Part shown: piece by piece, positions 42,832 to 57,398 of the stretch
How positions within the stretch are numbered: position 1 is the first letter of the stretch
How the letters are laid out: each line of letters starts with the position of its first letter
From: an archaeon
GTDB taxonomy: Archaea; Nanobdellota; Nanobdellia; Woesearchaeales; GW2011-AR9
NCBI GenBank assembly: GCA_018670085.1
Contig: JABHRS010000035.1
Location: 70,189 to 134,188 of the forward strand
DNA: 64,000 bases
Reading direction: 5' to 3'
Translations under genes and position numbers: made by a program
Notes under the pieces: generated by a model
Told to the model about the DNA's origin: nothing
Databases searched by the model: none
Seen by the model: only the letters and a program-made list of their open reading frames with translations

Positions 42832-44781
42832 TTAAAGTACTGAATATACTAAATCACAAACCGCTTGTGGTAATCTTAATACAGATGGAACATTTTGAGA
42901 AAATGTAGTGTTTTTGGTTAAAATATCAAAATAGTCACTTGGATCATTATCAACATTAAAGTAAAATGTTCTAATTCCCAGAGCTTCAACTTCCCCAAAT
43001 GCCATAGAGGTATCAATCACAGGGTCACCTGCATCATAACCAGCTGCTACTGGTTTTCCATCAGTGAATACAAATAGGTTTTTTTCTTTAGCTACCATTT
43101 TGTTTAACTCAGCAGCAACGCCACGAATAGCCACTCCATCCGCATTCCCACCCTCTGTTTCTAATGCACCTAAATTTTCCAAACTATCTATTCTGTATAG
43201 ATTTGTTTTCTCAGTGTCTGTTGAAAAAGCATACAATAAAACTCTGTCCCCAACAGCCGGATGAGTTAAAGCTTGGTACAATAACCCAGCAGCTTCCTTT
43301 TCAACATCAATTACTCGCTTTCCATCCGCTAGTTGATTTCCAGTAGACCCACTAATGTCAATTAAAATTACGTTCAATGTATCACGTCTAATAATTTTCT
43401 GACTGTCATAAATTCTAGCATTTGCTGCTAAGTTTGGATCACTAAGTACTTCAATAACAGCCTCCATGTTTAATTGATCAGGATCTTCTTGAAACCTAAC
43501 TCTTTGCATAGCGTTTGGTCTAAGTTTTGCAAAATGTCCAACAATTTGCTCCCTTAAATGGGAATATTTAGCAAGTTCCGTTACAAATTGATCGTTACGT
43601 CCTTCATAAGTTTGGTATTGCAAACTCGCAATGAACATATACGACTTTTTAAGATCATTATAAGTTATAATTTGAACTTTGTTTGGATCTTTTTTATCCT
43701 GCACATCTTCTTTAATAGATCCAGCCTTTGACATGCCAACACCACTGGCTGAATTAACAAAAGGACTTTTTTTACTAAAATTTCCTGCTAACTTTCCCAA
43801 TGTAGATTCAGCTGTATCTGCTGCACTAAAATCATGCACATCACCACGAAATCCAACATAAACTTTTTGAGTTTTATCTTTAGCTCCTTCATCCGAAGCA
43901 CCTGTTCCTTGACCTTGACCTTCACCTTCGCTTTCACCTTTACCTTTACTATCTTTATCAGATGCTGGTGCATTAACTGGTGCATACCTAGAGTTCTCAT
44001 TTGGAAATTCTTGCTCAATTTTTGGAAATGCTTTTGTTACCAGTTCATATAATTCTGGAACATCAGACCATACAACTTCAACTGATCTTCTGTCATGCCT
44101 TGGCCCATAAATATTATTTGTAATCATCATTGCCCGCTCTAGTACATCAGCTGCAATTCTAACACCTATTTTGTTTAATTGATCATTATCAACTTTAAAT
44201 TCTAATGTTTCTCTTTCCACATCCTTTACAGCAGGGTTAAACATTGAAGGTAATCCCTTACAGATAATCTGTGTGGAGAATATATCCATGAATCTTTCAT
44301 GTACAGTTGCTGACAGCTTATTTTTACTTGAATAAAACTGATTTGATCCAACTAATAAATTCACATCTTGTCTTTGTAAATAAAATTGACCATTGTATTC
44401 AATTCTCGCATCATCTGTAATGTTGTATAACGAATGAGCTAGCCCTTCATTTTCAAAAGATTTCAAATATTCTCTTCCATCAACAAAGAATGATCCTTCT
44501 AAGATGTGTAAAATTTCATGAACCAAATCAGAACGGTATAAGCTCATATTCCTGTTATTGAATAAATCTCTTTTTGAATCCTTAAAATCACTTTTTTGAG
44601 AAGGTAAGAAAATTCTTTTCCCATCAGTTTGTGGTCTTCTACCAGAAAGCAGAGGAAATACCCCAAGGTACCCTACCATTACTCTTTCTAATTGGGGTTT
44701 TGCTTTTTTAAAGTTTAAAGCGTACCAATTATCTATCGCACAGATAGCTTGCTTTTCATCATCAGTAAATTCTCTTGACAT
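42832..44781 (-). CDS. VWA-domain protein with intact MIDAS and an N-terminal HExxH putative metallopeptidase-like domain (NorD/CbbO- or DUF2201-like architecture)
   Basis: The C-terminus has VILIDISGSTG (DxSxS), then GGNADG, then VFTDGKP. The N-terminus has DLVHEILHILEG. A Gly/Glu/Lys low-complexity linker lies in the middle. I prefer ATG 44781 (MSREF...); the track start at 44796 is TTG. Confidence 0.8.
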   Translation of the reverse strand: MSREFTDDEKQAICAIDNWYALNFKKAKPQLERVMVGYLGVFPLLSGRRPQTDGKRIFLPSQKSDFKDSKRDLFNNRNMSLYRSDLVHEILHILEGSFFVDGREYLKSFENEGLAHSLYNITDDARIEYNGQFYLQRQDVNLLVGSNQFYSSKNKLSATVHERFMDIFSTQIICKGLPSMFNPAVKDVERETLEFKVDNDQLNKIGVRIAADVLERAMMITNNIYGPRHDRRSVEVVWSDVPELYELVTKAFPKIEQEFPNENSRYAPVNAPASDKDSKGKGESEGEGQGQGTGASDEGAKDKTQKVYVGFRGDVHDFSAADTAESTLGKLAGNFSKKSPFVNSASGVGMSKAGSIKEDVQDKKDPNKVQIITYNDLKKSYMFIASLQYQTYEGRNDQFVTELAKYSHLREQIVGHFAKLRPNAMQRVRFQEDPDQLNMEAVIEVLSDPNLAANARIYDSQKIIRRDTLNVILIDISGSTGNQLADGKRVIDVEKEAAGLLYQALTHPAVGDRVLLYAFSTDTEKTNLYRIDSLENLGALETEGGNADGVAIRGVAAELNKMVAKEKNLFVFTDGKPVAAGYDAGDPVIDTSMAFGEVEALGIRTFYFNVDNDPSDYFDILTKNTTFSQNVPSVLRLPQAVCDLVYSVL

Positions 44782-44934
44782 TTTTATATAACTCAAATAT
44801 TTTTAAACATCTCAAAAATTGTACCCAGAACTAATTTATTTGCTCAAGGAGTTTTCTATCTATTATTAGCAAAAATTGATCCTATTATGCTAACAAAAAA
44901 ACCCCCTCTTTTTGTTAATATTCAATATTGTTAA

Positions 44935-44958
44935 CTCATTTTTAAAGCTTTTGTCAAG
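44935..44958 (-). promoter_or_regulatory. Copy 2 of the shared 24-nt motif (coding strand CTTGACAAAAGCTTTAAAAATGAG), upstream of the VWA gene
   Basis: It matches the motif at 55872-55895 at 21 of 24 positions. It contains a BRE/TATA-like core AAAGCTTTAAAAAT. An adjacent GTTGTCGTAAAAT (44958-44972) resembles GTTTTGTCGTAATTT at 55835-55850. Confidence 0.4.
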
Positions 44959-45033
44959 ATTTTACGACAACCAAGATTAAAACCAGTTTACAGTCCTATG
45001 TGGGTGTTATAAATGTTAACTTAGACCATAATT

Positions 45034-46293
45034 TTACAGGTTTATCTCCCTACTTTCCAAAGTTCCAATTCTGTATTTATCTCCACCGATCAGATCATCA
45101 TCTTCAGTAAATCCGTCGACAATATGTTCCGCCCATTGGTTTACTACACCAGATTCCAATGCTTCAGGCAATTTTTCAAAGAAAAACTGATCAGCATTAT
45201 GACGTTGAGAACTGTTGTAAGCTTGGTAAATTAAATCAATATCACTTGACAGGAATATTTTCATCTGTGAAATGGATAAAAGTGGTTCAAACTGATCAAA
45301 AATATCCTTTTGTTGATGAGACAAGTTAGAAGAATTTTGATAAACCTCAATATAATCTCTGCAAGAATCTTGAACATATAAATGATTCTGATTTTTATCC
45401 GCACCCGATAAAACAGCTATTAAATCCCTCATAAATTTGTCCTGGAGATTCAATAGTCTTGCAGATTTATATCCATCAGCTATTCTTGCATATTCACTAT
45501 CTTGCATAACAGGGATTATTTTTGTTATTTCATCCAGCATAAGTTCATTTAATATGCCTTTCCAATATGCTGTCTTTTCATCAGATGGATCATTTCCTAA
45601 AAAATTAATGAATTCAGTTGGAACAATATATGGAATTGATGGCATTCGTAAATATGCCAAAACTTCAGCAGCATTTTTTGCAGTTTCAAAACCATTATCA
45701 ATCACATATTTAACAGCATTAGCAAAACCAACTGCAAATAAAGTGTTAGGCACCATATTCAGATAACGAATACTTTCAAATAATTTTATTTTACCATCAT
45801 CACTATCAATTTCTTGATAAATCCCAAAAAGCTCCTTTAGATGATGTTCAATAAAAGAATTATTTTCTAACGAAAAGTCATCATAATTTGCAAAATTTCT
45901 TGCATCTTCCAACATCTTTTCAAAATTGGATAGTTCAGGATTATTTTCTATGTCAATTTCAGAAAATAATCTTAATGTAATTCCAGTTAAAATTGGTTCT
46001 GAGTTAATCATGTTAATCTCCTCATCAGAAAAAGTTCTAGCAGCTGCAAATGTTTTAGTGACATCAACATTTCCTAAAAAATCACGATAAATGTCATCAT
46101 TTTCAAAATAAGTATTGAACTTAATGAAACTATTATAATTAGATTCCCCAACTGTTTCTATAAAAGTAGACAGCCCATCTTCTTGTAGTATTCGTTCCAA
46201 ATCATATGTATTCGCTTTAGCACAAAGTTTGATGTACTTTTTAGCATGCAAATCATCAGCCTGTATAGTATCAGATATTATTTCACCATTCAT
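45034..46293 (-). CDS. Paralog 5 (about 419 aa) of the family with the conserved C-terminal module FFEKLPEALESGVVNQWAEHIVDGFTEDDDLIGGDKYRI
   Basis: I place the start at ATG 46293, which forms ATGA with the upstream stop, with GAGGTG 8-10 nt upstream. The protein is alpha-helical by composition. No known domain recognised. Confidence 0.8.
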   Translation of the reverse strand: MNGEIISDTIQADDLHAKKYIKLCAKANTYDLERILQEDGLSTFIETVGESNYNSFIKFNTYFENDDIYRDFLGNVDVTKTFAAARTFSDEEINMINSEPILTGITLRLFSEIDIENNPELSNFEKMLEDARNFANYDDFSLENNSFIEHHLKELFGIYQEIDSDDGKIKLFESIRYLNMVPNTLFAVGFANAVKYVIDNGFETAKNAAEVLAYLRMPSIPYIVPTEFINFLGNDPSDEKTAYWKGILNELMLDEITKIIPVMQDSEYARIADGYKSARLLNLQDKFMRDLIAVLSGADKNQNHLYVQDSCRDYIEVYQNSSNLSHQQKDIFDQFEPLLSISQMKIFLSSDIDLIYQAYNSSQRHNADQFFFEKLPEALESGVVNQWAEHIVDGFTEDDDLIGGDKYRIGTLESREINL

Positions 46294-47759
46294 TTGCAAG
46301 ACACCTCAAGTTCTCGACTATAGATCGGTCCAATTCTGTATTTGTCTCCACCAATCACATCTTTATCTTCAAGATTGCATCTATCAATTATACTCTCAGC
46401 CCACTCAGATACAATTCCTTGTTCCATAACTCGAGGTAAATTTTCAAAAAAATTATCTTCAAAATGACCAATCATGGCATAACCAAAAGCTTCACTTACT
46501 ATAGAAAATTCATCGGAAGGCAATTTTAAAAAATAACTCATTGGACTTTTATCAAAATGACCCACTGTTTGGGTAAAAAATGAAGAATTACTACAATAAT
46601 TGTCATAACCTGAATATTTTGAAGTATCGAGATTTACAGCTGTGTAGAATAAGCCAATATCTTTCTCAGACAGAGATTTAGGTTCAAATCTCCACAAGAT
46701 AAAAGCCTCCCTTAAATAATCAAAATTTCCTGAGACTGCTTCGAGCAATTTACTAACAAAAGTATTGCCTCCATTCTCCCACCAAACAGAATTTCTTGTA
46801 CTTGCAAAATTTCTAGCAATCTCAATATCAGAACAAATACCATCAACTAGCAAATCTTTAACCTCACTATTTTTATCTGTCCACAATGCATAAGCTTTTT
46901 GACTAATTGCTGCATCTTGCTTTAACATACTAGCTAATTCAATCCCGATGGAGTTATACAAATTTGAACCACAATTTCCAATAATATATTCCGCCAACTC
47001 CAGATCATCTCCTATCAGATCAAGAATTTCAGCTCTCAAATGGTTGATTTTTGGATTTACTGATTCAAAACTAGTGCTAGTCCCAAAAAAAGACATAAAT
47101 ATCTTTTTAGCTCCAGCATCAACTTTTAATGATCTCAGAATATCCTTAGAAAATAATTTAAATCTACCATCTTCATTCAGAGACTCTATCGCATTAAAAA
47201 TTTCACTATAATCTCCTTTTAAACTAGCAATTAATTGATCTTTGTTTCTTATCACAAATTCCAAAGGCAGATCTGAAAAAGATCTATGTCTTAAAGTATA
47301 ACTTTTAGACATATTTTCAATCAGTTTAGATTCAAAAGAGATATATCTTTTCTGATCCCAATAGTTCACTACATCAAGAGAAAACTTCCCTGTCCAATCA
47401 GAGTTAAGATGAGTACCCAAATTATTATGTAAATACTCAAATCTCCAATCATCAAATGATACTCCACCAGTGAGCATATCAGTTTCACCGATATACTTAG
47501 CCAAAATATTACCAGTAAGTTCTAAACTTTCTTTAGTCCAATATTTTAAGGCCTGATATGCAAAATTATGAACCTCAATAAGATTATTATTTTCAGGTCT
47601 ATCTAAGCTAGAATGATTATCCAAACTTTCCTCCAATGAACTAGCTACTAACTTAAATTTGCTAAGTCCTAATCCTTCTTCTTCCTCAGATAACCCATAT
47701 CCAAAAGATTTAGTTAGATCAGAAAAACCAGCTTCAATTAATTTATCATCAAGACTCAT
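46290..47759 (-). CDS. Paralog 4 (about 489 aa); C-terminal module FFENLPRVMEQGIVSEWAESIIDRCNLEDKDVIGGDKYRI
   Basis: It is a full-length paralog of 49528..51018 with the same N-terminus, MSLDDKLIEAGFSDLTKS. There is an ATGA overlap with the upstream gene, and GGAGGTGA lies upstream. Confidence 0.8.
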   Translation of the reverse strand: MSLDDKLIEAGFSDLTKSFGYGLSEEEEGLGLSKFKLVASSLEESLDNHSSLDRPENNNLIEVHNFAYQALKYWTKESLELTGNILAKYIGETDMLTGGVSFDDWRFEYLHNNLGTHLNSDWTGKFSLDVVNYWDQKRYISFESKLIENMSKSYTLRHRSFSDLPLEFVIRNKDQLIASLKGDYSEIFNAIESLNEDGRFKLFSKDILRSLKVDAGAKKIFMSFFGTSTSFESVNPKINHLRAEILDLIGDDLELAEYIIGNCGSNLYNSIGIELASMLKQDAAISQKAYALWTDKNSEVKDLLVDGICSDIEIARNFASTRNSVWWENGGNTFVSKLLEAVSGNFDYLREAFILWRFEPKSLSEKDIGLFYTAVNLDTSKYSGYDNYCSNSSFFTQTVGHFDKSPMSYFLKLPSDEFSIVSEAFGYAMIGHFEDNFFENLPRVMEQGIVSEWAESIIDRCNLEDKDVIGGDKYRIGPIYSRELEVSCK

Positions 47760-49531
47760 TTGCAACTCACCTCCACTTCTCGGTAATTTCCAATAGTATC
47801 TGTTGCAACCCGATACCTATCTCCACCGATTAAATCTGGATCAAGTTCATTGCAGCTTTCAATAATATGTTCAGTCCAACTTTGATGATCACCATTTCTT
47901 ACCATGATAGCAAAATTTTCAAAAAAATCTTCATGTATCCAACCTGGGCTTAACAATTCATGAGCATGATACATTCTTTCCCTCTCGTGAGCAGGTATTT
48001 GCATAAACTCTTTAACCGATAAATATTCAACAGCTTTGTTCATATAATCCACATTACCCCTATTTTCATTAGATCTTTCATTCAAAAAATTTTCAAACAG
48101 TTGAAATTTATCATCAGAAAAATCACTTTCGATCCAGTCCTTCAAATCTTCAACATATTCTAAAAGAGCAGGTCTTGACAATGAATACACAGTAGTAATT
48201 GAGATTAATTGAGATGCATCAGCTTTTGCTATAGTTTCAATTGGAATATGTTTCAATACCTCAGAAAATCCATCATATACAGATTGATAATCAACATCTG
48301 TTAAATGAGTCAACCTGTTAAAATCATGAAATAACTTAGAGTACATTTCAAGCGCCTTCTTTCTAGTTTCCACATCTCTATCAACAGAATAAAACCTTTT
48401 AACAAAATCTTTATCAAGTCCTATATTGTTAGAAAATTGATATAAATGCATTAAATCGCGTGAATATCCTTCATCATTAACAAATTGTACTCTCGAATTT
48501 TCAGGAAATACATTTTCAGGATCTTCTAATTTAAGTTTCCAGTATGATTCTTCTTTCACTGAAGATATATCTCTGCAATCATGTTTAGAATTATCTTGAG
48601 CATTAAGTGCTTCAGTTAAAATTGAAAAATAGATATTAGAAAAATTGATATTAGAAAATTTATCCAGAAACTCATTTGTTAATTCTTTTTTACTTAAAAC
48701 AGAAGTCATCAACAATTCTTGGTTCATTATCAACTCAGAATTACTAAGTTCAGAAATAGCTTTAACCAAAAAAGGTGAATCCTTTAATCCTTCAATTAAT
48801 TGTGGCAATACTCTTTTTCTTCTTCTTTGATAGAGACTATTTGTGATTGCATTGTAGGAATGTTCAACACTTTTACTAACTGATCCCAGGACCAGATCTT
48901 CATAACGATCATGTAAACTCAGTACAATCCCATTTCCAACAGATGGTTTATTATTAAGAGAAATCAAAAATTCATAAGCTAATTTCGGATCATTTTCTAT
49001 TTCTTTATTAACTTCATCAAAATTAAACCACCTAGAATAATCAACAGATCCACACAGTTTAGAATAAGCATCAGGTACATCAAAATGAGATGATTTTAAC
49101 AAACTAGCATACAAGCTAACATCATGACATATCTCTTTTAATTCATCCCTAACACTCAATAATTTAAGAGCAGACCATCCCTTAAATGTTATGTGAATAA
49201 AATCATTTTTACTAATACCAATATCTTCATCTATTCCTTTGTGATCAACAATATTTTCTAATAATTTTTTTCTAATCGGCAAAAACCTCCAAAGTGGTAA
49301 ATCTTTACCTAGTTCGAAAGAGTGCGATCGGTTCAATCCTTTAACCAAATCTGTTGCATACTTAATCATCCTAGGATATTTCCAAATTTTTAAAGCCAAA
49401 GAACAAAGTTCAGATGAATCAACTATTTGCTCTAAGAATGACTCCGCCTGTGGATAAAATTCACTAGAACTCATTAAAGAACCAGCTTTTAAAGCATCCA
49501 ATGAATCTGGATTTTCAAATTTATTACTCAT
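47756..49531 (-). CDS. Paralog 3 (591 aa); C-terminal module FFENFAIMVRNGDHQSWTEHIIESCNELDPDLIGGDRYRV
   Basis: There is an ATGA overlap with the upstream gene. The roughly 500-aa N-terminal region is divergent. Confidence 0.8.
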   Translation of the reverse strand: MSNKFENPDSLDALKAGSLMSSSEFYPQAESFLEQIVDSSELCSLALKIWKYPRMIKYATDLVKGLNRSHSFELGKDLPLWRFLPIRKKLLENIVDHKGIDEDIGISKNDFIHITFKGWSALKLLSVRDELKEICHDVSLYASLLKSSHFDVPDAYSKLCGSVDYSRWFNFDEVNKEIENDPKLAYEFLISLNNKPSVGNGIVLSLHDRYEDLVLGSVSKSVEHSYNAITNSLYQRRRKRVLPQLIEGLKDSPFLVKAISELSNSELIMNQELLMTSVLSKKELTNEFLDKFSNINFSNIYFSILTEALNAQDNSKHDCRDISSVKEESYWKLKLEDPENVFPENSRVQFVNDEGYSRDLMHLYQFSNNIGLDKDFVKRFYSVDRDVETRKKALEMYSKLFHDFNRLTHLTDVDYQSVYDGFSEVLKHIPIETIAKADASQLISITTVYSLSRPALLEYVEDLKDWIESDFSDDKFQLFENFLNERSNENRGNVDYMNKAVEYLSVKEFMQIPAHERERMYHAHELLSPGWIHEDFFENFAIMVRNGDHQSWTEHIIESCNELDPDLIGGDRYRVATDTIGNYREVEVSCK

Positions 49532-51018: not shown

Positions 51019-54000
51019 TTGGCCACCATCACACTATAAATCATAACAGGATCAACTAATCTCCCAACACTCTCTCGATACCTATCCCCACCAATAAAAT
51101 CATCATCTTCTGTGAACTGATCAATAATTGCCAAAGACCAATCTTCAGCAGTACCTTCTTGAATCATTTGAGATAAATTTTCTTCAAAATATCTCTCTGC
51201 ACCATGAGTTTTAACTATTCTATAAGCATTACTTACTGAGATAAACTCTGAGATAGAAAGCGAGACTAGTTCTTCACTTGGAACTCTATAAGAAATATTT
51301 TTCCAATCATTAATATAACCTTCAGGAATATTAGAATACTGTTGATATAATTTTTGAACTATCCCATCTTGATTAAAATAACCAGTTAATGAAGTATTTT
51401 CTTGTTCCAAATAATTAACTAATCCTCTCATTAGACCACTATTAACGTTTTGTGTAAAACGATAGAAATCTTTTGCTAATAAAAATTCATCCGCGGAAAA
51501 ACCAATTAAATCATCAAATGATAAATCCATTGCCAAACATTTCCAAACATTATGATCCCCAGGATCAACTGTGTCTAAATGATCTTTGATTTTTTGATAT
51601 TTGGAACCAACTATTGAAAAAGCTAACATTAAATCATTTTTATTCTTTAGTTCTTTATTCACATCATTGTAAAAATCAAGCACAGTAAGCCCATTAGAAA
51701 ATAATTTAGAACTTATTCCAAAAGTCATCTCTTCAGGTGATAATTTAACTAATGCTTCCAAAGAAAATTTAACCATAAATGACCCAAAAGTTTCTTTATG
51801 TTCTTCAAGTATAGCACTCTCAACTTTATCTAAATCTTGATATAATTTAAGCTGATTTTCTAACTCTAATTTGATTTGATCCTTATCTTTTTCACCAATA
51901 TCATCAAAAACAGATAATTCATTTCTACCCCATTTCCGGTCATAAACACCTACATGTCGTAATAAGGCATATTCATTATTCCCAAGTTCTAACTCTAACA
52001 CTTTTTCACGGCCAATGATAGGGTTATCAATTAATTCTAAGATAGTTGAACAATGTTTAGAGTCAACTCTGTAAAAGTGGGAAACCAATCTACGATCCCC
52101 AGCAACTTTTAGTGCATCCTTATGTTCAAGATTCTTATTTTTGTGTAACCTGTTTGCTACTTGGATATATTTTGGACCATGTTCTACTGTAGCATTCATC
52201 ATTTCTTCTAGTCTAACACTTCTGTGAAAATTACTAAAGCCAGCAGAACCAAATAACAAACTAGTTTTCATTTCTTGGATCAACACATTTCGATCTACTT
52301 TACTCAACCCAAAATAGAAATCAGTAAATGGTTTTAAAGAAACTTCTTCATCTCTTCCAATTTCAAAAGATCTAAGACTGTTAGCTTTTCTCCAATCTTC
52401 ACTAAAAGCTGCAAAACCTTTATCTGAAAAATCACTATATCGTCTTAATTGTAATCCAATTGAAGATGCCTCAAATCTATAGCATTTTTCTTGCTCAGAG
52501 TCATGTAGTTTAGAAAATTTTTCTAATAACTTATTTATAGAAAGAGTTCCATCCAAAATACGAAGATCAAAGTAGTTTTTCTTCACCATTCTTTGAACAA
52601 TTGAGAAATATTTGGGGTCAACTTCTCTAATTAAATAAGCACAACCTCCAACGTGACCTGAAGCATCTACCAACACTTCCCTCTCTGTGTTAGTTAATTT
52701 TGCAACATAAGAAACACTATCACAATTCTTCTTAGCCAGTTGGACTCTCTTAACCAACCCATACTCTAATCCATTAAAATCTGACATAATTTCACAAACC
52801 TCCTCAACTCTAGAAATTGATCCAGATTCCAAATGTTCTTCCTCAGATTCAATTTTAGCTCCTAACTGCTCTCTACTAGCTATGATAGACAGTTTCTTCA
52901 ACTTATCAGCATCAACTAACATAGCAACTGATTTACCAAGTTTTAACAAAATATTATTCAATCCACGTCTTTCTAATTGTTTTAAAGACATAATTGATTC
53001 AAAGCTTGCGGACTTAGAAACTTGCAAATAATCAACTGAAGATTTTGAAACCCCAGAGAACCCAATATAAAAAGCGGCAGGTAATTTTGATTCATCAACC
53101 AATTCATTCAGAGATTTTGCCCCAATTTTTTGCCAATCATCTAAATTTTGAATTACCTCAAGAGCTCCAGGCCCAGCATCATCATTACAAAAATTATTAT
53201 CAAGGTAAGAATCAACCCCATTTCTAAAATCCAGATTTAATTCTTTATAAAAATCTCTAAATCCACTACTAAACTCATCACTGGAAATAGAGTCAGAGTC
53301 CTTGGTCCAAACTTCATAAAAAGATCTTACTGTATCCAAAAAGTGATTATTAATCTCCCTAAATTTTTGATCCTGTAAATCCACTACTCTCTTCTGAAAT
53401 TTATCTTCTTCAAAACAATCATTCATTCTCTTAATTAACCCAGAACTATCACCATCAGCTGCTTTTTTTATTTCAGAGATCCATCTAGGTGGAGCACCAT
53501 TATCTTTAGCAACAGCTGCATGAATTTTTGGTAAAAAATTTCTTGACAATTGATTTAATAATCGTTTATTCCCTTTAGCTGTAGAATATAATTTTTTCAA
53601 TAAAGGGTTACCAAGAATATAAATCCCCCTCTCACCTACAAAGGACCGCAGATTTTCATAAAATTCCACTTTCTCTTGTTTAGCTCCAGCGCCAACTAAA
53701 TTTTTCAAATACTGTTTAGATAATCCTTCAGAAAATCTTGCTTCCTCAACAAATCGCTCAGTAGTCAAAAATCTTGATGCTGGAACTTGATCAATATACC
53801 TAATATAAACTTGTTGAAGTGAATCTGAACTACTTTCAATCAATGTTTCAATTTTTTTGGAAACAGACAAAACATTTTTTCGTTTCATCCCAGTTGCCAT
53901 TGAAGATAACAAATTTGATTTCATTAACTTCTGAAAATAAGATCTTGATCCTTTTTTTCCACTCTTAGCGTAGATCATAAAAGCTTCAAAACGCTGATCA

Positions 54001-54461
54001 AATCCTAGCTCAGTATAATTTCTACTCAATAAATCCAAACTTTCATTAGTAGATTTTATCACGCTTCGATATTCCCTACCGTTCAAATCTCCAAGTTGAT
54101 CAAAAACTAAGTTTAATAGTTCAGGGGATTTCTCAAATTCCCTTTTTTCTGCTAACAAGAATGTTTCATCCATTCGATATTGCAGTTCAGAGATATTTTC
54201 TGCATCGTCTTCAATTGAATGTTTATTAACCAAATTTTCTAAAGCGCCAATAACTATTTCAGAATTAGTATTAGAAGAATTAGCTAATTTATGAGCATAA
54301 TGTAGTACATTATTAACATCATATTTTAAAGATAAAGATAATTTATCAAATAATTTCAAAATAGAATCCAAATTGAATTTTGATAAAGCAGGTATCTCAT
54401 CAACAAGTTCATCACTAAAAATAGCTCCTAATTCATCATCAACAATATATCCAAGTGCCAT
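51015..54461 (-). CDS. Paralog 1 (1148 aa); large helical protein ending in the module YFEENLSQMIQEGTAEDWSLAIIDQFTEDDDFIGGDRYRE
   Basis: It is the first gene of the coupled array. GGCGGTGATG lies upstream of its ATG. An oligo-T run (coding strand) at 54501-54523 separates it from the AAA+ gene. Confidence 0.8.
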   Translation of the reverse strand: MALGYIVDDELGAIFSDELVDEIPALSKFNLDSILKLFDKLSLSLKYDVNNVLHYAHKLANSSNTNSEIVIGALENLVNKHSIEDDAENISELQYRMDETFLLAEKREFEKSPELLNLVFDQLGDLNGREYRSVIKSTNESLDLLSRNYTELGFDQRFEAFMIYAKSGKKGSRSYFQKLMKSNLLSSMATGMKRKNVLSVSKKIETLIESSSDSLQQVYIRYIDQVPASRFLTTERFVEEARFSEGLSKQYLKNLVGAGAKQEKVEFYENLRSFVGERGIYILGNPLLKKLYSTAKGNKRLLNQLSRNFLPKIHAAVAKDNGAPPRWISEIKKAADGDSSGLIKRMNDCFEEDKFQKRVVDLQDQKFREINNHFLDTVRSFYEVWTKDSDSISSDEFSSGFRDFYKELNLDFRNGVDSYLDNNFCNDDAGPGALEVIQNLDDWQKIGAKSLNELVDESKLPAAFYIGFSGVSKSSVDYLQVSKSASFESIMSLKQLERRGLNNILLKLGKSVAMLVDADKLKKLSIIASREQLGAKIESEEEHLESGSISRVEEVCEIMSDFNGLEYGLVKRVQLAKKNCDSVSYVAKLTNTEREVLVDASGHVGGCAYLIREVDPKYFSIVQRMVKKNYFDLRILDGTLSINKLLEKFSKLHDSEQEKCYRFEASSIGLQLRRYSDFSDKGFAAFSEDWRKANSLRSFEIGRDEEVSLKPFTDFYFGLSKVDRNVLIQEMKTSLLFGSAGFSNFHRSVRLEEMMNATVEHGPKYIQVANRLHKNKNLEHKDALKVAGDRRLVSHFYRVDSKHCSTILELIDNPIIGREKVLELELGNNEYALLRHVGVYDRKWGRNELSVFDDIGEKDKDQIKLELENQLKLYQDLDKVESAILEEHKETFGSFMVKFSLEALVKLSPEEMTFGISSKLFSNGLTVLDFYNDVNKELKNKNDLMLAFSIVGSKYQKIKDHLDTVDPGDHNVWKCLAMDLSFDDLIGFSADEFLLAKDFYRFTQNVNSGLMRGLVNYLEQENTSLTGYFNQDGIVQKLYQQYSNIPEGYINDWKNISYRVPSEELVSLSISEFISVSNAYRIVKTHGAERYFEENLSQMIQEGTAEDWSLAIIDQFTEDDDFIGGDRYRESVGRLVDPVMIYSVMVAK

Positions 54462-54543
54462 AGTATCTTACATCACCGCCCAACAACACCTTTAAAAGAT
54501 AAAATTAAAAAAAATAAAAAACGATCAAAATCAAAACTCAGAT

Positions 54544-55782
54544 TTAAGGAGTCTGATTAAAGTTAGTTCTCTGTTGTCTTGCCGGAATTAAATTAAGATG
54601 TTCAGCAATGGAAGTTACTGCATCGCGCCTAGTTGCACCATCTCCAGACCCTAAATTCTTAGAACCATATTGTCCAAAACAAATCTGATCAATGCATATA
54701 CGAGTGCTATGAATACTGGCCTTACCAGAACTCATTCCCATCCCAATCAATGAATCATATTCCTTAGCAGCAGCTCTTTGAATCCGCTGCGAAGGTAAAT
54801 GTAAATCAACTTGACTCATTTTTCCAAAATCACTCAAATAAGCAACAACTGCATCTGGAATATTACTAGTTCCACTTAAAGAAAATTTTTTAGTAACTCC
54901 AATAAATTCTGCTAAGTTTAATGCAAATCTTGCTCTTTCAGTGCCATCAAGTGGAAGCAAGGGGGATACTGGCCCAGGTACAGCTGATGCTGCAGCAATT
55001 GGTGCTGACCCAGAACCTGCAACTGCTGGCAAAAATGTTTGATACTTCAATGCACCACTCGGTAATTCAGCATTTTCTCCACTAAAAAAGGAAGTCCAAC
55101 TATCATTAACTTTCTTAAAAAAAGCCAATCTTTTCTCTGAATCATCATAACTAATTGCTCTTTCTTCAAAAGGTAATTCACTTTGATAATTCCAAGCTAA
55201 TGCAGCTTCAAGAGCTGCTGATAAATATTTGAATTCAACATGCACAAATCTATCCGCAACAGAATCTTCTAGTTCCCTTTTATCCAATCGGTTAGTTGGG
55301 TTATAAGATAAAACTCCAAAAAATCCCTCTTTTGCAGAAATCACTGTACCATCACGACGAGTAATTCTTCGTCTATCATCAAATAATGAGTTCAATCTTT
55401 TTTGAACAGTACCAGGTAATTGATCAACTTCATCAGCATAAAAAATTCCACCAGCTGCAGCAGCCTTAGTAGCCACCCCATTTTCCCAAACAGTTTTGGT
55501 TCCGCCGTTACTTTTTAATCCAGGAAATCCAACTAACCCTGATTCAGTCATAAATTCATCACAAGTAATATCATATAATGCTGGTAACCCTGGATCCTTC
55601 CAGTTACCAAAGAAATTTCCCTGAACAACCTTACCAAATTGTTCAACTAATTCCGTTCTTCCAACACCCGGCGGGCCAGACATTGCTAAATGCTCATTAT
55701 TAGTGTAAGTTAAGAATAATCGTTGTACTTCATCAATTCCTTCTGGTGATAGCTGATTTGCAATATATTTCATGTCTTCCAT
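54544..55782 (-). CDS. MoxR/AAA_5-type AAA+ ATPase (CbbQ/NorQ/GvpN-like core) with an atypical Walker A GPPGVGRT and a roughly 200-aa C-terminal extension
   Basis: Walker A is SGPPGVGRT; I confirmed the Arg codon AGA by hand at 55657-55659. Walker B is GGIFYADEVDQL. Sensor-1 region is VLSYNPT. SVADRF is also present. An Ala/Pro/Ser-rich linker and a further domain follow. Confidence 0.8.
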   Translation of the reverse strand: MEDMKYIANQLSPEGIDEVQRLFLTYTNNEHLAMSGPPGVGRTELVEQFGKVVQGNFFGNWKDPGLPALYDITCDEFMTESGLVGFPGLKSNGGTKTVWENGVATKAAAAGGIFYADEVDQLPGTVQKRLNSLFDDRRRITRRDGTVISAKEGFFGVLSYNPTNRLDKRELEDSVADRFVHVEFKYLSAALEAALAWNYQSELPFEERAISYDDSEKRLAFFKKVNDSWTSFFSGENAELPSGALKYQTFLPAVAGSGSAPIAAASAVPGPVSPLLPLDGTERARFALNLAEFIGVTKKFSLSGTSNIPDAVVAYLSDFGKMSQVDLHLPSQRIQRAAAKEYDSLIGMGMSSGKASIHSTRICIDQICFGQYGSKNLGSGDGATRRDAVTSIAEHLNLIPARQQRTNFNQTP

Positions 55783-55871
55783 TTTGGGTATCCTGTATTC
55801 TTGTGTTAAATATGTTTAACCTTAGTAACACCTCAAAATTACGACAAAACCTATGACTCTCAACCTAATTC

Positions 55872-55895
55872 CTCATTTATAAAGCTTTTGTACAG
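55872..55895 (-). promoter_or_regulatory. Copy 1 of the shared 24-nt motif (coding strand CTGTACAAAAGCTTTATAAATGAG), upstream of the AAA+ gene
   Basis: It contains the BRE/TATA-like core AAAGCTTTATAAAT, about 90-110 nt upstream of ATG 55782. See the copy at 44935-44958. Confidence 0.4.
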
Positions 55896-55978
55896 TAATT
55901 ACTCTATAGAAGTGAATTTGATGTGCGAAGGAAGTGAGATATTGAATAAGGTGATAAAAATTAGAACTTTTTTGAATA

Positions 55979-57229
55979 TTAATTATTAATTTTAGCAACT
56001 TTAAGTCGGCCTTTCTTATCTAATTGCCTTGACAAGAATGAAGTTAATACATAATCATGATCATAAAGCAAATGTGCAACCACTTCCTTAAGAGAAAATG
56101 CATCTTTGTAATCAATAATTGCCTGAATTTTCTCATCATCAAAAGCATATTCACAGAAAAATTCCACACAAAATTTCTTTTCATCATCTATTCTTTGTTT
56201 CCAATCATCAAGTTCATAATGTAATCTAGAATCCCATTTTCGGATCACACCTTGATACAAACGCATCGGATGGGTTTCATCTTCGAAATCAGTTACAGCC
56301 CAAATTCCTGCGTGTTCAAGTTTGTACTTTTTAAAAGCCAATTGTAATACAGCTTTCACATCAAAAATTCCTTTATCAGCTGAAGTGTTACAAATATACA
56401 AAAATGCTTCATAAGTTGCTTTACAACATCTAGTAAATAATCTCTCAGTTGCTTTCGATTTATCACTATATTTCCAATCAAAAACTTTAACTCCATAATT
56501 TTCAATTAGAAATTGTTTAGCAGAGTTAATAATGAACAAATTTTTAAAACATTGATATAGTCTCCCTCTTTCATCAAAACAATCAATACTTAAAATGTTA
56601 TGAATTCGATCAGCAAGTTTTACTTGAATCGCTCTTTCACGTGTTTCAAGATCTTTACAGTTAAAGATATAAGAGATAGATTTGTAGTAAAAATCTCGTT
56701 TTAATCTAGTTAGCAGTTTTAATGTTTCAATAATTTTTCCAACAGCAGAAGAGTCAATATTTTCTTTTTCACAAAAATCATACAAATCCTTTTCAAATTT
56801 AGAAACAAGTTTAATCTCATACTCATCTAGTAAAACCTTTCCTTCAGCAGATTTATCATCCAGACCTTTTTCTTTTTTATAAATATCAACCTGCTCTTCG
56901 ATATGATCATGCATTAGCCCACAAAGTAAAGTAATTGTATCTTTAACTCCACTACGTTTTAAATTCAAGACCACATTTAGTGGATGTAAGAAAGATTCAA
57001 AACCATTTTTTCTTGGAGGCATTTCAGAATACAACTCCTGGGATAGGCCATAAAGAAATTCACATAAAGGAAATAGAGGATCACGAATATCAAACATCGT
57101 CTCAACTCTTCTAACTAATTTTAAAGGTTCCCAAGCCCGCAAAGATTCAAAACGTTCTTTTCTTTTTTTTACGCACTCATCAGGATTCATAATATTCACA
57201 TGCCACACAAGATCCAATTCTTCACTCAT
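55979..57229 (-). CDS. HD-domain phosphohydrolase with RelA/SpoT/Mesh1-type motif set, plus an unknown C-terminal domain
   Basis: FLHPLNVVLNL..., then LLCGLMHDHIEEQVD, then VKLADRIHNILSI. This matches the HP / HD(x)xE[DE] / KLADRxHN order of (p)ppGpp hydrolase domains. About 170 aa follow with no recognised motif. Confidence 0.7.
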   Translation of the reverse strand: MSEELDLVWHVNIMNPDECVKKRKERFESLRAWEPLKLVRRVETMFDIRDPLFPLCEFLYGLSQELYSEMPPRKNGFESFLHPLNVVLNLKRSGVKDTITLLCGLMHDHIEEQVDIYKKEKGLDDKSAEGKVLLDEYEIKLVSKFEKDLYDFCEKENIDSSAVGKIIETLKLLTRLKRDFYYKSISYIFNCKDLETRERAIQVKLADRIHNILSIDCFDERGRLYQCFKNLFIINSAKQFLIENYGVKVFDWKYSDKSKATERLFTRCCKATYEAFLYICNTSADKGIFDVKAVLQLAFKKYKLEHAGIWAVTDFEDETHPMRLYQGVIRKWDSRLHYELDDWKQRIDDEKKFCVEFFCEYAFDDEKIQAIIDYKDAFSLKEVVAHLLYDHDYVLTSFLSRQLDKKGRLKVAKINN

Positions 57230-57235
57230 CTTGTA

Positions 57236-57267
57236 TTTTGTATATAAAGTACAATTTGTATATAAAT
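57236..57267. promoter_or_regulatory. Tandem TTTGTATATAAA boxes in the divergent intergenic region
   Basis: Two copies lie at 57237-57248 and 57255-57266. Read on the minus strand, the first gives TTTATATAC about 10-20 nt upstream of the HD gene ATG (57229). That is consistent with a leaderless or very short-leader archaeal transcript. Confidence 0.4.
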
Positions 57268-57398
57268 ATTTGGCTTTGCAACAGAAATAATCCAGAAATA
57301 AAAATAAATAGACAAAAAATTAAATTAAAAATCATCAGAAACATTTATAAAAATAACTTCAAAAGACTAAAACAGAGTTGTTGGTTGCAGTGATAAAC

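What the first reader, a model, noticed from the sequence alone, without database searches (positions are those of the whole stretch)
42832..57229. Candidate undescribed AAA+(MoxR-type)/VWA system with a five-paralog array and a SpoT-like HD hydrolase
**What the sequence shows.** Eight consecutive minus-strand genes run in this order:
- an HD hydrolase with the RelA/SpoT motif set
- an AAA_5/MoxR-type ATPase
- five genes (1148, 496, 591, about 489 and about 419 aa) that share only a C-terminal module
- an HExxH + VWA(MIDAS) protein

**Established background.** MoxR-class ATPases work with VWA/MIDAS partners as remodelling or metal-insertion machines. Examples are RavA-ViaA, CbbQ-CbbO, NorQ-NorD and CoxD-CoxE. 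vWA-MoxR modules have also been described as cores of multi-gene conflict or signalling systems. E. coli yehLMPQ is another uncharacterised AAA_5 + VWA + large-helical-protein cluster.

**Inference.** Here the two enzyme partners bracket five co-translated proteins that I cannot assign to any family. Those five could be substrates, scaffold subunits or a diversified adaptor set. A nucleotide-alarmone-type hydrolase heads the locus. I do not recognise this architecture as a described system.
Basis: partly seen in the sequence, partly recalled or inferred. Interest (0 to 1): 0.9.

Follow-up and report, generated by a model that had tools for sequence, protein, structure and literature searches.

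The report
Archaeal ATPase–VWA machine with paralog array
An uncultured small-genome archaeon carries a conserved three-part gene system: a NorQ-like motor ATPase, a NorD-like adhesion-domain partner with an intact zinc-protease motif, and a tandem array of otherwise unknown helical proteins that share one C-terminal "handle"; the neighbouring HD hydrolase gene is probably just a neighbour.

Summary
All eight minus-strand genes exist as described. The ATPase is a NorQ/CbbQ-type MoxR AAA+. The last gene is a NorD-type VWA protein with intact MIDAS, a predicted pore "finger" and an invariant HExxH…D…E N-terminal domain. The five genes between them share a ~90-residue all-helical C-terminal module ending in [IK]-G-[GA]-x-x-Y-R plus a short tail.

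- **Correction:** two of the five (491 and 496 aa) are 51% identical over their full length, so "share only a C-terminal module" is not strictly right.
- **Conservation:** AAA, at least one C-module protein and VWA recur together in about ten independent loci from Woese-/Pacearchaeota-like (DPANN) archaea. Array size runs from 1 to at least 12. One related metagenome carries more than 20 copies, including a 10-gene array with no ATPase beside it.
- **No known family:** the module matches nothing in Pfam, NCBIfam, PADLOC, PHROGs, PDB or BFVD.
- **HD gene:** it is absent from every other AAA/VWA locus, belongs to a conserved housekeeping synteny block and has its own promoter-like region. I exclude it from the core.

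Best reading: a new variant of the MoxR–vWA ternary systems. A NorQD-like motor engages a diversified family of helical proteins through their common C-terminal handle. The biological role (conflict or sensor system, or partner release) is not resolved.

The parts
54544..55782 (-). AAA412: NorQ/CbbQ-type MoxR AAA+ ATPase (AAA_5). Walker A at 55654-55677 reads GPPGVGRT, with the Lys replaced by Arg (codon AGA at 55657-55659). Walker B is FYADE.
   Evidence: - Pfam AAA_5 3.6e-16.
- PDB sequence matches: NorQ 2e-13, CbbQ 4e-12, Midasin AAA modules.
- 75 homologues found. The roughly 45%-identical set is unnamed metagenomic; a Woesearchaeota protein is at 37%.
- The Walker A K->R is unique among 32 aligned family members.
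51015..54461 (-). p1148: the long form of the C-module protein, first gene after the ATPase. The C-module is the last ~100 codons (51015-51317).
   Evidence: - The C-module matches the other four paralogs.
- N-terminal residues 93-333 are homologous to the first post-AAA gene of L002 (954 aa, 1e-20) and L013 (996 aa, 5e-19).
- No hits in Pfam, PDB or PHROGs.
49528..51018 (-). p496: C-module paralog (module at 49528-49830). Full-length paralog of p491.
   Evidence: - 51% identity to p491 over 497 columns.
- ATGA overlap with both neighbouring genes.
- No known family.
47756..49531 (-). p591: C-module paralog (module at 47756-48058).
   Evidence: No known family.
46290..47759 (-). p491: C-module paralog (module at 46290-46592). 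The likely start is the ATG at 47757-47759, which gives an ATGA overlap with the p591 stop codon. The mechanical ORF starts at the TTG at 47765.
45034..46293 (-). p421: the shortest C-module paralog (module at 45034-45336). The likely start is the ATG at 46291-46293.
   Evidence: -.
- AlphaFold2 model of the last 210 residues: the module is a bundle of six helices with pLDDT about 80-90, followed by the GG..YR loop.
42832..44796 (-). VWA654: NorD-type partner protein.
- N-terminal domain with HExxH (44506-44520) and D129/E133.
- Disordered Gly/Lys/Glu-rich linker carrying a conserved YxG[FY]RGD[VA]HD[FY]S motif.
- Beta-hairpin 'finger' at residues 373-396.
- VWA domain with MIDAS DxSxS (43345-43359), T531 and D553.
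- Conserved LP...V C-terminus.
- The true start may be the ATG at 44781.
   Evidence: - NorD is the only PDB sequence match with E below 0.01.
- Invariant columns across 10 family members.
- AlphaFold2 pLDDT 71 overall, 80-90 in the N-terminal domain, finger and VWA domain.
- Foldseek top hits are NorD VWA+finger in NorQD complexes, E 4e-11.
55872..55891 (-). 20-nt motif ACAAAAGCTTTATAAATGAG, 90 nt upstream of the AAA412 start: palindrome AAAGCTTT followed by a TATA-like box. Putative promoter or operator.
   Evidence: - It occurs only twice in the 64 kb, both times in this locus; 0 of 100 shuffles gave 2 matches.
- A near-identical AAAGCTTTAAATA lies about 40 nt upstream of the RHH-AAA operon in L013.
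44935..44954 (-). Second copy of the motif (ACAAAAGCTTTAAAAATGAG), between the p421 stop and the VWA654 start.
   Evidence: Sequence context.
55979..57229 (-). HD416: RelA/SpoT-like HD-domain protein. An adjacent gene, judged NOT to be a core part of the system.
   Evidence: - Motifs and weak family hits.
- It has its own TATA-like sequence upstream.
- Its 47%-identical orthologue in L020/L021 sits with TatD, DS and ArgDC, away from that organism's AAA/VWA pair.
- No homologue in L001, L002, L004, L006, L011, L013, L014 or L022.

Best explanation
The locus encodes a three-component MoxR-vWA system found so far in DPANN-type archaea: (1) a NorQ/CbbQ-type AAA+ hexamer, (2) a NorD-type partner protein, and (3) one to many alpha-helical proteins that all end in the same ~90-residue module.

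**Shown**
- The family assignments of the ATPase and the VWA protein.
- The NorD-like architecture of the VWA protein: N-terminal domain, disordered linker, beta-finger, MIDAS VWA domain, conserved C-terminus.
- The shared C-terminal module, always at the extreme C-terminus.
- The conserved gene linkage of the three components, with translational coupling.

**Inferred by analogy with NorQD, CbbQO and Rea1/Midasin**
- The VWA protein plugs its finger into the ATPase pore.
- Its MIDAS site and/or N-terminal domain grips the common C-terminal module of the helical proteins, which acts as a handle.
- ATP-driven rotation or pulling remodels, releases or activates those proteins.
- The variable N-terminal helical or repeat part of each paralog provides different binding specificities. 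The array would then be a diversified set of adaptors or sensors served by one motor, comparable in logic to the VMAP component of bacterial MoxR-vWA ternary conflict systems.

The invariant HExxH...D...E site in the VWA protein's N-terminal domain probably binds a metal and may add a proteolytic or metal-dependent step. The HD hydrolase next door is a chromosomal neighbour, not a component.
For: **ATPase and VWA partner are a NorQ/NorD-type pair**
- ATPase. VWA.
- AlphaFold2 shows the N-terminal domain, linker, beta-hairpin and VWA domain. Foldseek's top hits are NorD VWA+finger in NorQD complexes, then the MDN1 MIDAS domain.
- MIDAS residues and the C-terminal LP motif are invariant in 10 family members.
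- The NorQD mechanism (finger in pore, C-terminus on the post-sensor-1 loop, MIDAS binding acidic residues of the target) is taken from PMC13036017.

**Conserved linkage**
- Every informative locus with the VWA gene has C-module gene(s) directly adjacent. Every locus with sequence available upstream has the AAA gene. The loci are L001, L002, L004, L006, L009, L011, L013, L014, L022 and L025.
- Gene overlaps of 4 nt link the five paralogs.

**The module behaves like a handle**
- It sits at the extreme C-terminus in essentially all of the 52 hits among 1.84 billion representative proteins, which range from 69 to 1148 aa.
- Within one locus the modules are 34-59% identical, against 20-26% between loci and 20-31% for the preceding 200 residues.

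**Variable part**
- Many members carry ~30-aa tandem helical repeats of differing number.
- Only 2 of 56 have a 19-residue hydrophobic window (Kyte-Doolittle mean above 1.6), so they are probably cytosolic.

**Accessory or mobile behaviour**
- The system's position differs between the window and its syntenic relative.
- TA modules, RHH genes, a Rep-like gene, a transposase or plasmid-like content lie next to some loci.

**Architectural precedent**
- VMAP ternary systems.
Against: - No physical or expression data exist. Which element contacts the C-module (MIDAS site, N-terminal domain or the ATPase) is untested.
- No strictly invariant acidic residue was found in the module to serve as the MIDAS ligand.
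- The GG..YR tail is missing in the more divergent Woesearchaeota variants (L001, L004, L025), so only the helical core (F..GL...L......W..II) is universal.
- This window's ATPase has Arg in place of the Walker A Lys, unlike all 31 relatives aligned. It may hydrolyse ATP poorly or not at all.
- A 10-gene C-module array lies away from any AAA/VWA gene in a relative, so the helical proteins may also function independently.
- The 'sensor/adaptor' role has no direct support. No effector domain is evident other than the HExxH domain.
Confidence: 0.55

Rival explanations
1. ATP-gated maturation protease. The HExxH N-terminal domain of the VWA protein is an active gluzincin-type peptidase. It cleaves the helical proteins at or near the conserved C-terminal G-[GA]-x-x-Y-R motif and removes the short tail. 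The AAA+ ring positions or unfolds the substrate.
For: - H93, E94, H97, D129 and E133 are invariant in 10 of 10 family members. In the model they lie on two consecutive helices preceded by a beta-hairpin, which is a zincin-like layout.
- The bacterial NorD/CbbO-like homologue keeps the TDGKRIFLP motif but lacks HExxH, so the site is specifically retained in this archaeal family.
- The module's Gly-Gly...YR motif is always followed by only 2-19 residues (mode 4-6), with one 35-residue outlier (P0127).
- Peptidases are frequent parts of MoxR-vWA ternary systems.
Against: - No peptidase family matches the N-terminal domain in Pfam, even at E up to 10.
- Foldseek returned only VWA matches, so the fold assignment is untested.
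- The GG..YR motif is absent from the L001, L004 and L025 variants although their VWA proteins keep HExxH.
- Part of the C-terminal residue bias is forced by the ATGA gene overlaps.
Confidence: 0.15
2. Metal-insertion chaperone in the strict NorQD/CobST/CoxDE sense. The HExxH...E site holds a metal ion that the motor inserts into the helical proteins, or into an unlinked enzyme for which the helical proteins are targeting adaptors.
For: - The nearest characterised relatives, NorQD and the CobT-like VWA proteins, are metal-insertion machines (PMC13036017).
- The N-terminal domain has an invariant metal-ligand-like set.
Against: - The C-module has no conserved His, Cys, Asp or Glu cluster.
- No metalloenzyme gene is linked to the system in any of the loci.
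- More than 20 paralogous clients per small genome is unlike any known insertion chaperone.
Confidence: 0.1
3. Self-assembling scaffold or polymer. The helical-repeat proteins form a cytoplasmic structure such as a coat, filament or compartment, with the C-module as the polymerisation or docking unit. The AAA+/VWA pair assembles or disassembles it.
For: - The proteins are all-alpha repeat proteins with a common terminal domain, and copy number is high.
- AAA_5 ATPases such as GvpN act on self-assembling structures (background knowledge, not tested here).
Against: - Sizes (69-1148 aa) and N-terminal parts vary very widely, which is unusual for structural subunits.
- There is no similarity to any known structural protein.
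- Array size varies from 1 to at least 12 between relatives.
Confidence: 0.1
4. One reading: an eight-gene system headed by a SpoT-like HD hydrolase, coupling the AAA+/VWA machine to a nucleotide alarmone signal.
For: - The HD gene is adjacent on the same strand.
- Its 47%-identical orthologue in a related genome lies about 2 kb from a 10-gene C-module array.
Against: - It is absent from all 8 other AAA/VWA loci examined.
- In the relative it is part of the HD-TatD-DS-ArgDC housekeeping block that also flanks the window's locus, while that genome's AAA/VWA pair lies elsewhere.
- A 196-nt gap with its own promoter-like motif separates it from the ATPase gene, and the HD gene has its own TATA-like upstream region.
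Confidence: 0.06

Closest known systems
NorQ/NorD (and CbbQ/CbbO) MoxR AAA+ / VWA chaperone pairs
   Same: - They are the nearest characterised relatives by sequence for both partners.
- The VWA protein has the same architecture: N-terminal domain, long disordered linker, beta 'finger', MIDAS VWA domain, conserved C-terminus (PMC13036017).
- The bacterial homologue shares the TDGKRIFLP motif in its N-terminal domain.
   Different: - No nitric-oxide reductase or Rubisco genes are linked. The linked 'client' genes are a novel helical family in tandem arrays.
- The N-terminal domain keeps an intact HExxH...D...E set that the bacterial homologue lacks.
- The ATPase is about 140 residues longer than NorQ (412 vs about 270 aa).
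- The host is archaeal (DPANN).
MoxR-vWA-VMAP ternary conflict systems (Kaur, Burroughs, Iyer, Aravind 2020, PMC7159879)
   Same: - Three-gene logic: MoxR + vWA + a third protein.
- That third protein has a rapidly varying all-alpha region and a conserved C-terminal domain.
- Peptidase domains are often present.
- Systems are diversified and sit in accessory genomic contexts.
   Different: - The VMAP-C domain is a mixed alpha+beta domain. Here the module is about 90 residues and all-alpha.
- No VMAP or bpMoxR Pfam model matches, apart from a 38-residue Walker A stretch at E 0.005.
- There are no effector domains C-terminal to the vWA domain and no EAD, TIR or caspase domains.
- The third component is multiplied into arrays of up to at least 12.
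- The system occurs in unicellular small-genome archaea rather than multicellular bacteria.
Rea1/Midasin MIDAS domain pulling Ytm1/Rsa4 by their UBL handle
   Same: - AAA_5 modules of Midasin match AAA412, and the MDN1 MIDAS domain is a top structural match of the VWA domain.
- The concept is the same: one motor removing different factors through a common small handle domain.
   Different: - Midasin is a single giant eukaryotic polypeptide.
- Its handle is a beta-grasp UBL domain with a key Glu. Here the handle is helical and no invariant acidic residue was found.
- The functional analogy is inference only.
E. coli yehLMPQ cluster
   Same: It is an uncharacterised cluster of an AAA_5 ATPase, a VWA protein and large proteins.
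   Different: - YehL vs AAA412 reaches only E 0.003 at 21% identity.
- YehP shows no specific match to VWA654.
- YehM, YehQ and YehI have no C-module.

Membership tests
MoxR-class AAA+ (AAA_5; NorQ/CbbQ subgroup) | AAA_5 domain with Walker A, Walker B, sensor and Arg-finger motifs; closest to NorQ/CbbQ | tested here: met
   Pfam AAA_5 59.9 bits against a cutoff of 22. NorQ and CbbQ are the top PDB matches. Walker B DE is present.
MoxR-class AAA+ (AAA_5; NorQ/CbbQ subgroup) | Canonical Walker A lysine (GxxGxGK[ST]) | tested here: not met
   The window protein reads GPPGVGRT (AGA codon at 55657-55659). All 31 other aligned relatives have GK[TS]. This affects predicted activity, not family membership.
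NorD/CbbO-type VWA partner | C-terminal VWA domain with a complete MIDAS (DxSxS...T...D) | tested here: met
   D480, S482, S484, T531 and D553 are invariant in 10 family members. NorD profile match 2.2e-24.
NorD/CbbO-type VWA partner | Finger-like beta extension preceding the VWA domain that enters the AAA+ pore, plus an N-terminal domain and a long flexible linker | tested here: met
   AlphaFold2 gives a beta-hairpin at 373-396 (pLDDT about 88), disorder at 277-370 and a folded N-terminal domain at 30-270. Foldseek aligns 300-307 columns to NorD VWA+finger chains. Actual pore insertion was not testable.
NorQD / CbbQO functional systems | Genetic linkage to the client enzyme (norCB or Rubisco/carboxysome genes) | tested here: not met
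   No such genes occur in the window or in any related locus.
MoxR-vWA-VMAP ternary systems | Third component with a VMAP-C domain (alpha+beta, about 7 strands and 6-7 helices) and VMAP-M middle regions | tested here: not met
   No Pfam VMAP models match the five paralogs or 10 further family members, even at E up to 1. The modelled module is all-helical.
MoxR-vWA-VMAP ternary systems | Conserved co-linear MoxR + vWA + third gene with a variable helical part and a conserved C-terminal domain | tested here: met
   About ten loci show this. This is an architectural resemblance only.
Zincin (gluzincin-like) metallopeptidase, for the VWA protein's N-terminal domain | HExxH on a helix plus a downstream Glu/Asp ligand on the next helix; a protease-like fold | tested here: inconclusive
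   The motif set is invariant and lies on helices 82-99 and 117-136 of the model. No peptidase family matches in Pfam and no separate structural match was obtained.
RelA/SpoT-type HD hydrolase (HD416) | HD_4-type motifs (HP, HDxxE, KLADRLHN) | tested here: met
   The motifs align to Lmo0812 and Rel HD domains and to TIGR00691 locally at 2.6e-5. Whole-domain scores are below the curated cutoffs.
Known anti-phage defence systems (PADLOC-DB) | Any component matching a PADLOC model | tested here: not met
   There are no hits apart from a 26-residue Walker A match to MkoC at E 0.073.

The most novel reading that the evidence does not exclude
This is a DPANN-specific surveillance or host-interaction system.
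- Dozens of diversified cytosolic alpha-repeat 'receptor' proteins per roughly 1-Mb genome share one C-terminal handle.
- They are monitored by a single NorQD-like motor.
- The motor's VWA subunit carries an active zincin. Ligand binding by a receptor licenses ATP-driven extraction and cleavage at the GG-x-x-YR tail.

In effect it would be an archaeal counterpart of the bacterial VMAP ternary immune systems, built from unrelated parts. It would also show what the ancestral, catalytically intact N-terminal domain of NorD/CbbO did.
Probability: 0.15. Interest if true: 0.85.

Novelty: new variant of a known kind. Interest (0 to 1): 0.62.

Why it matters
- **A large investment by small genomes.** DPANN archaea have tiny genomes and live on other cells. 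A protein family expanded to more than 20 copies and tied to a dedicated ATP-driven motor is a large investment, so it probably serves something central to their lifestyle, such as defence, host interaction or turnover of binding partners.
- **A tractable model for MoxR–VWA machines.** How these machines choose and act on targets is poorly understood. Here the presumed targets are encoded next to the motor and share a small, well-defined docking module. That makes a simple system for structural work.
- **A clue to NorD/CbbO evolution.** The intact HExxH site in a NorD-type N-terminal domain suggests that the N-terminal domains of NorD and CbbO derive from a metal-binding, possibly proteolytic, ancestor.

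Tried and rejected
1. **Family assignment of the five paralogs.** Pfam, NCBIfam, PADLOC, PHROGs, PDB phmmer, and Foldseek of the module model against PDB and BFVD gave nothing significant.
2. **Word-indexed homology searches.** The window-only module alignment returned only two fragments of the window's own proteins. A 25-sequence module alignment returned nothing. This is a limit of the index. The exhaustive HMMER search with the window-only profile then found 52 proteins.
3. **Virus origin.** The VWA family was not found in IMG/VR.
4. **Tail mimicry.** I tested whether the C-module tails imitate the C-terminus of their cognate VWA protein, which in NorD docks on NorQ. Cognate and non-cognate tail scores were 10.49 and 10.42, permutation p = 0.46. 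Rejected.
5. **yehLMPQ as a relative.** Rejected.
6. **Spirochaete and Leptospiraceae homologues of the ATPase** (about 33% identity, about 550 aa). The one locus inspected (L024) has the ATPase alone, with no VWA or C-module gene, so the bacterial clade is a different arrangement.
7. **CobNST-like chelatase.** The arrangement of AAA_5, a large subunit and a VWA protein resembles it, but p1148 has no CobN match and CobT_C hits to the VWA proteins are marginal.
8. **N-terminal domain homology to bacterial NorD/CbbO.** hhalign of the family profile against one bacterial homologue aligned only the VWA half. A local HMM gave two weak colinear segments, including TDGKRIFL (E 4e-4 with Z=1). I treat this as weak support only.
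9. **The ~30-aa repeat** common in relatives is not detectable in the window's five proteins.
10. **Source organism.** Exact look-ups of window proteins gave only one named cluster mate, labelled 'archaeon'. The window's own ATPase was not on record for a contig look-up.

Full report
**1. What is in the window**

The region 42832-57229 holds eight consecutive minus-strand ORFs:

| Label | Coordinates |
|---|---|
| HD416 | 55979-57229 |
| AAA412 | 54544-55782 |
| p1148 | 51015-54461 |
| p496 | 49528-51018 |
| p591 | 47756-49531 |
| p491 | 46290-47765 |
| p421 | 45034-46299 |
| VWA654 | 42832-44796 |

- The five middle genes are joined by 4-nt ATGA overlaps once p491 and p421 are started at their ATG (third codon of the mechanical ORF).
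- The gaps are 82 nt (p1148 to AAA), 196 nt (AAA to HD) and 237 nt (VWA to p421).
- The flanks are archaeal housekeeping genes. On one side are CDC48, a MOSC protein, agmatinase, arginine decarboxylase and deoxyhypusine synthase. On the other are TatD, an RNase T-like exonuclease and a MiaB-like radical-SAM enzyme.
- G+C is about 32% throughout. There are no tRNA or Rfam matches in the window.
- The only named near-identical cluster mate of a window protein is labelled just 'archaeon'.

**2. The two recognisable enzymes**

*AAA412*
- It matches Pfam AAA_5 (3.6e-16). Its best solved relatives are NorQ (2e-13) and CbbQ, followed by AAA modules of Midasin.

*VWA654*
- It has a weak Pfam VWA signal, but NorD is its only PDB sequence match with E below 0.01. 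A four-sequence family profile raises that match to 2.2e-24 over the C-terminal 230 residues.
- A 10-sequence family alignment shows several invariant features:
  - the MIDAS residues D480-x-S-x-S, T531 and D553;
  - a C-terminal L-P motif;
  - an N-terminal set T57-D-G, N81/N83/Y87, H93-E-x-x-H97, G101, D129 and E133.
- An AlphaFold2 model built with that alignment has mean pLDDT 71. It shows:
  - a folded N-terminal domain (residues 30-270, pLDDT 80-90), with HExxH inside helix 82-99 and D129/E133 on helix 117-136;
  - a disordered Gly/Lys/Glu-rich linker (277-370);
  - a confident beta-hairpin (373-396);
  - the VWA domain.
- Foldseek places the NorD VWA+finger chains of the 2026 NorQD cryo-EM structures on top (E 4e-11), followed by the MDN1 MIDAS domain.
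- This is the domain plan described for NorD. [quoted passage not shown]
- A bacterial NorD/CbbO-like protein picked up in the genome scan shares the nine-residue TDGKRIFLP motif with VWA654 but has no HExxH. The metal-ligand set is therefore a retained speciality of the archaeal family. No peptidase family matches this domain in Pfam, so 'zincin-like' remains an inference from motifs and predicted helices.

**3. The five unknown genes**

- All five end in a homologous module. BLASTP gives 1e-6 to 1e-14, and W, I-G-G-D, Y and R are invariant.
- They are not unrelated elsewhere. p491 and p496 are 51% identical over their whole length, and p1148 and p421 align over about 180 residues.
- An AlphaFold2 model of the last 210 residues of p421 gives a six-helix bundle for the module (pLDDT about 80-90), then the Gly-Gly...Tyr-Arg loop and a short tail.
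- Nothing in Pfam, NCBIfam, PADLOC, PHROGs, the PDB (sequence or fold) or BFVD resembles these proteins.

**4. Is the arrangement conserved?**

Yes. Contexts of AAA412 homologues, and scans with the VWA family alignment, returned about ten independent loci. I classified their ORFs with BLAST and with module HMMs.

| Locus | Gene order (sizes in aa; Cm = C-module protein) |
|---|---|
| L001 (Woesearchaeota MAG) | AAA - 446 Cm - VWA |
| L006 (Pacearchaeota MAG) | AAA - 220 Cm - VWA |
| L011 | AAA - 860 Cm - VWA |
| L013 | AAA - 996 Cm - VWA |
| L002 | AAA - 954 Cm - 346 Cm - VWA |
| L004 (Woesearchaeota MAG) | AAA - VWA - five paralogs |
| L025 | AAA - 849 Cm - VWA - 710, 658, 1137 Cm |
| L022 | two or more Cm - AAA - four Cm - VWA |
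| L009 | Cm - VWA (contig end) |
| L014 | Cm - VWA - at least eleven further paralogs, to the contig end |

- Every locus with the VWA gene has a C-module gene directly adjacent. Every locus with sequence upstream has the ATPase.
- A 96-kb contig from the metagenome that also holds the L022-type contig carries ten consecutive C-module genes with no ATPase beside them, plus two more about 18 kb away. If the contigs belong to one organism, that is more than 20 copies in a small genome.
- An exhaustive HMMER search with a profile built only from the window's five proteins found 52 proteins at E <= 0.001 among 1.84 billion representatives, one of them a false positive. Lengths range from 69 to 1148 aa, and the module sits at the extreme C-terminus in essentially every case. 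All named members are 'hypothetical protein'.

**5. Anatomy of the module and of the variable part**

- Across 75 sequences the module consensus is: LP..F....AY.FA.Q...E..F..GL...LE.GTV.KWA.TIID.FR..[IK]-G-[GA]-x-x-Y-R, followed by 2-19 residues (mode 4-6), with one 35-residue outlier (P0127).
- F, W, I, GG and Y are each 91-97% conserved (Arg of the YR motif 81%). No acidic position is invariant.
- The GG..YR tail is replaced by other conserved endings in the divergent L001, L004 and L025 variants. The universal core is therefore the helical part.
- Modules within a locus are 34-59% identical. Between loci the figure is 20-26%, and for the preceding 200 residues it is 20-31%. This fits lineage-specific expansion and/or co-evolution with one local partner.
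- Many relatives carry N-terminal tandem ~30-residue repeats (sY.AG..WsDERF...AE.I..GV..DP) in differing numbers. The window's five do not detectably have them.
- Only 2 of 56 members have any TM-like hydrophobic stretch, so the family looks cytosolic.
- The long form that follows the ATPase (p1148 and its counterparts) has its own conserved N-terminal region, with no catalytic-looking motif.

**6. The HD gene**

- HD416 does carry RelA/SpoT-type HD signatures.
- No homologue lies near the system in L001, L002, L004, L006, L011, L013, L014 or L022.
- Its 47%-identical orthologue in L020/L021 sits with orthologues of the window's TatD (61%), deoxyhypusine synthase (76%) and arginine decarboxylase (58%). 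That organism's AAA/VWA pair is on another contig in a different neighbourhood.
- In the window the system lies exactly between HD and DS, that is, inside this conserved block.
- HD416 has its own TATA-like upstream sequence.
- The orthologue does lie about 2 kb from a C-module array, so a lineage-specific link cannot be fully excluded. It is still not a core component.

**7. Regulation clues**

- A 20-nt motif, ACAAAAGCTTTA[A/T]AAATGAG, combines the palindrome AAAGCTTT with a TATA-like box. It occurs exactly twice in the 64 kb, upstream of AAA412 and upstream of VWA654; 0 of 100 shuffles reached two matches.
- A near-identical AAAGCTTTAAATA lies about 40 nt upstream of a small ribbon-helix-helix gene that immediately precedes the ATPase gene in L013. 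RHH-like genes occupy the same position in L022 and L004. The window has no such ORF.
- This suggests two co-regulated transcription units (ATPase + five paralogs; VWA). It is not proof: a T7 run lies between the second motif and the VWA start.

**8. How it most likely works**

*Shown*
- A NorQ-type ATPase, a NorD-type partner with all the structural elements used in NorQD, and a gene-linked family of helical proteins with a common C-terminal module.

*Inferred*
- The VWA protein docks on the hexamer by finger-in-pore.
- Its MIDAS site and/or N-terminal domain binds the module.
- ATP-driven movement remodels or releases the helical proteins, whose variable parts bind different ligands.
- This is the logic proposed for MoxR-vWA ternary systems, where the vWA domain captures a peptide of the third component and MoxR restructures the complex (PMC7159879). 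It is also the logic of Rea1 pulling factors by a common handle.
- The invariant HExxH site may add proteolysis or metal handling.
- The conserved RGD-containing linker motif (Y-x-G-[FY]-R-G-D-[VA]-H-D-[FY]-S, present in 9 of 10 members) is a candidate intramolecular MIDAS ligand. This is speculation, prompted by the NorD linker data.

*Supporting an accessory, possibly conflict-related role*
- The genomic position is variable.
- A ParE/YafQ toxin-antitoxin pair lies beside L004.
- L002 has plasmid- or virus-like gene content.
- L013 has a Rep-like gene and a DDE transposase nearby.
- Other copies are plainly chromosomal.

*Caveat specific to this window*
- The Walker A lysine of AAA412 is arginine (AGA), unlike all 31 relatives aligned. 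This copy may be a slow or inactive ATPase.

**9. Comparison with known systems and novelty**

- By sequence the pair belongs with NorQD/CbbQO. It lacks their clients and adds the HExxH site.
- By architecture it parallels the VMAP ternary systems. It fails their defining sequence and fold features: no VMAP-C or VMAP-M match, an all-alpha module, and no vWA-fused effectors.
- yehLMPQ is not related beyond the AAA_5 class.
- Literature searches for MoxR together with DPANN, Woesearchaeota or archaeal dark matter found no description of this system.
- I therefore class it as a new variant of a known kind: a MoxR-vWA ternary system with a new third-component family, multiplied into arrays, in DPANN archaea.

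**10. Verdict**

| Claim | Confidence |
|---|---|
| Conserved three-component system | about 0.9 |
| Motor-handle mechanism | about 0.55 |
| Any specific biological role | low |

It is wrong to include the HD hydrolase, and it is somewhat overstated on architectural novelty.
- Interest is moderate to high (0.62). The system is conserved, expanded and uncharacterised in an enigmatic archaeal group, and it offers a tractable handle on MoxR-VWA target recognition. No function has been established.

Noticed in passing
window 55654-55677 (minus strand); Arg codon AGA at 55657-55659: The Walker A motif of AAA412 is GPPGVGRT. The catalytic Lys is replaced by Arg, whereas all 31 other family members aligned have GK[TS]. 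This may mean a hydrolysis-impaired ATPase in this organism.
   Followed up: partly
window 44935-44954 and 55872-55891 (minus strand): A 20-nt motif, ACAAAAGCTTTAWAAATGAG (palindrome AAAGCTTT plus a TATA-like box), occurs only twice in the 64 kb: upstream of the VWA gene and upstream of the ATPase gene. A similar AAAGCTTTAAATA precedes the RHH-AAA operon in L013 (position about 2123).
   Followed up: partly
L013 ~2165-2304; L022 ~2545-2681; L004 9715-9999: A small ribbon-helix-helix gene sits immediately upstream of the ATPase gene in several relatives (Pfam RHH_1 above its cutoff for L013, weaker for the other two). The window has no such ORF in its 196-nt gap. L011, and L002 downstream of its VWA gene, have small AbrB-like-looking ORFs without a Pfam match.
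   Followed up: partly
window 43822-43860 approx. (VWA654 residues 313-324): A conserved motif, Y-x-G-[FY]-R-G-D-[VA]-H-D-[FY]-S, lies inside the otherwise disordered linker of the VWA protein and is present in 9 of 10 family members. An RGD-type acidic motif next to a MIDAS domain could be an intramolecular pseudo-ligand.
   Followed up: no
L010 8036-10861 (Pseudomonadota MAG) vs window VWA654 residues 57-65: A bacterial NorD/CbbO-like protein shares the exact nonapeptide TDGKRIFLP with the archaeal family but lacks HExxH. [quoted passage not shown]
   Followed up: partly
L014 218-12827; L020/L021; 96-kb contig of JGI sample 3300072015: C-module genes form very large tandem arrays: at least 12 in L014, and 10 consecutive genes in the 96-kb contig with no ATPase or VWA gene beside them. 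Many carry ~30-residue tandem repeats (sY.AG..WsDERF...AE.I..GV..DP) that match no Pfam repeat family.
   Followed up: partly
window 39652-42615 and 55979-59124 vs L020 5016-11117: The block HD - TatD - deoxyhypusine synthase - arginine decarboxylase - agmatinase is syntenic between the window and a relative (47-76% protein identity). Only the window has the AAA/VWA system inserted between HD and DS. The polyamine/hypusine genes themselves form a tight overlapping cluster.
   Followed up: partly
L011 7470-10451: An RtcB tRNA ligase gene interrupted by an intein with a LAGLIDADG homing-endonuclease domain lies about 1.4 kb downstream of one related system.
   Followed up: no
L024 2967-4604 (Spirochaetota-type contig): Bacterial homologues of the ATPase (about 33% identity, about 550 aa with an N-terminal extension of about 140 residues) appear to stand alone next to a BrnT/BrnA toxin-antitoxin pair, without VWA or C-module genes.
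   Followed up: no
window 57378-58202 (+) and 57359-57610 (-): A 274-aa ORF with no Pfam match lies between HD416 and TatD on the opposite strand. It overlaps an 83-aa minus-strand ORF. I did not investigate it.
   Followed up: no
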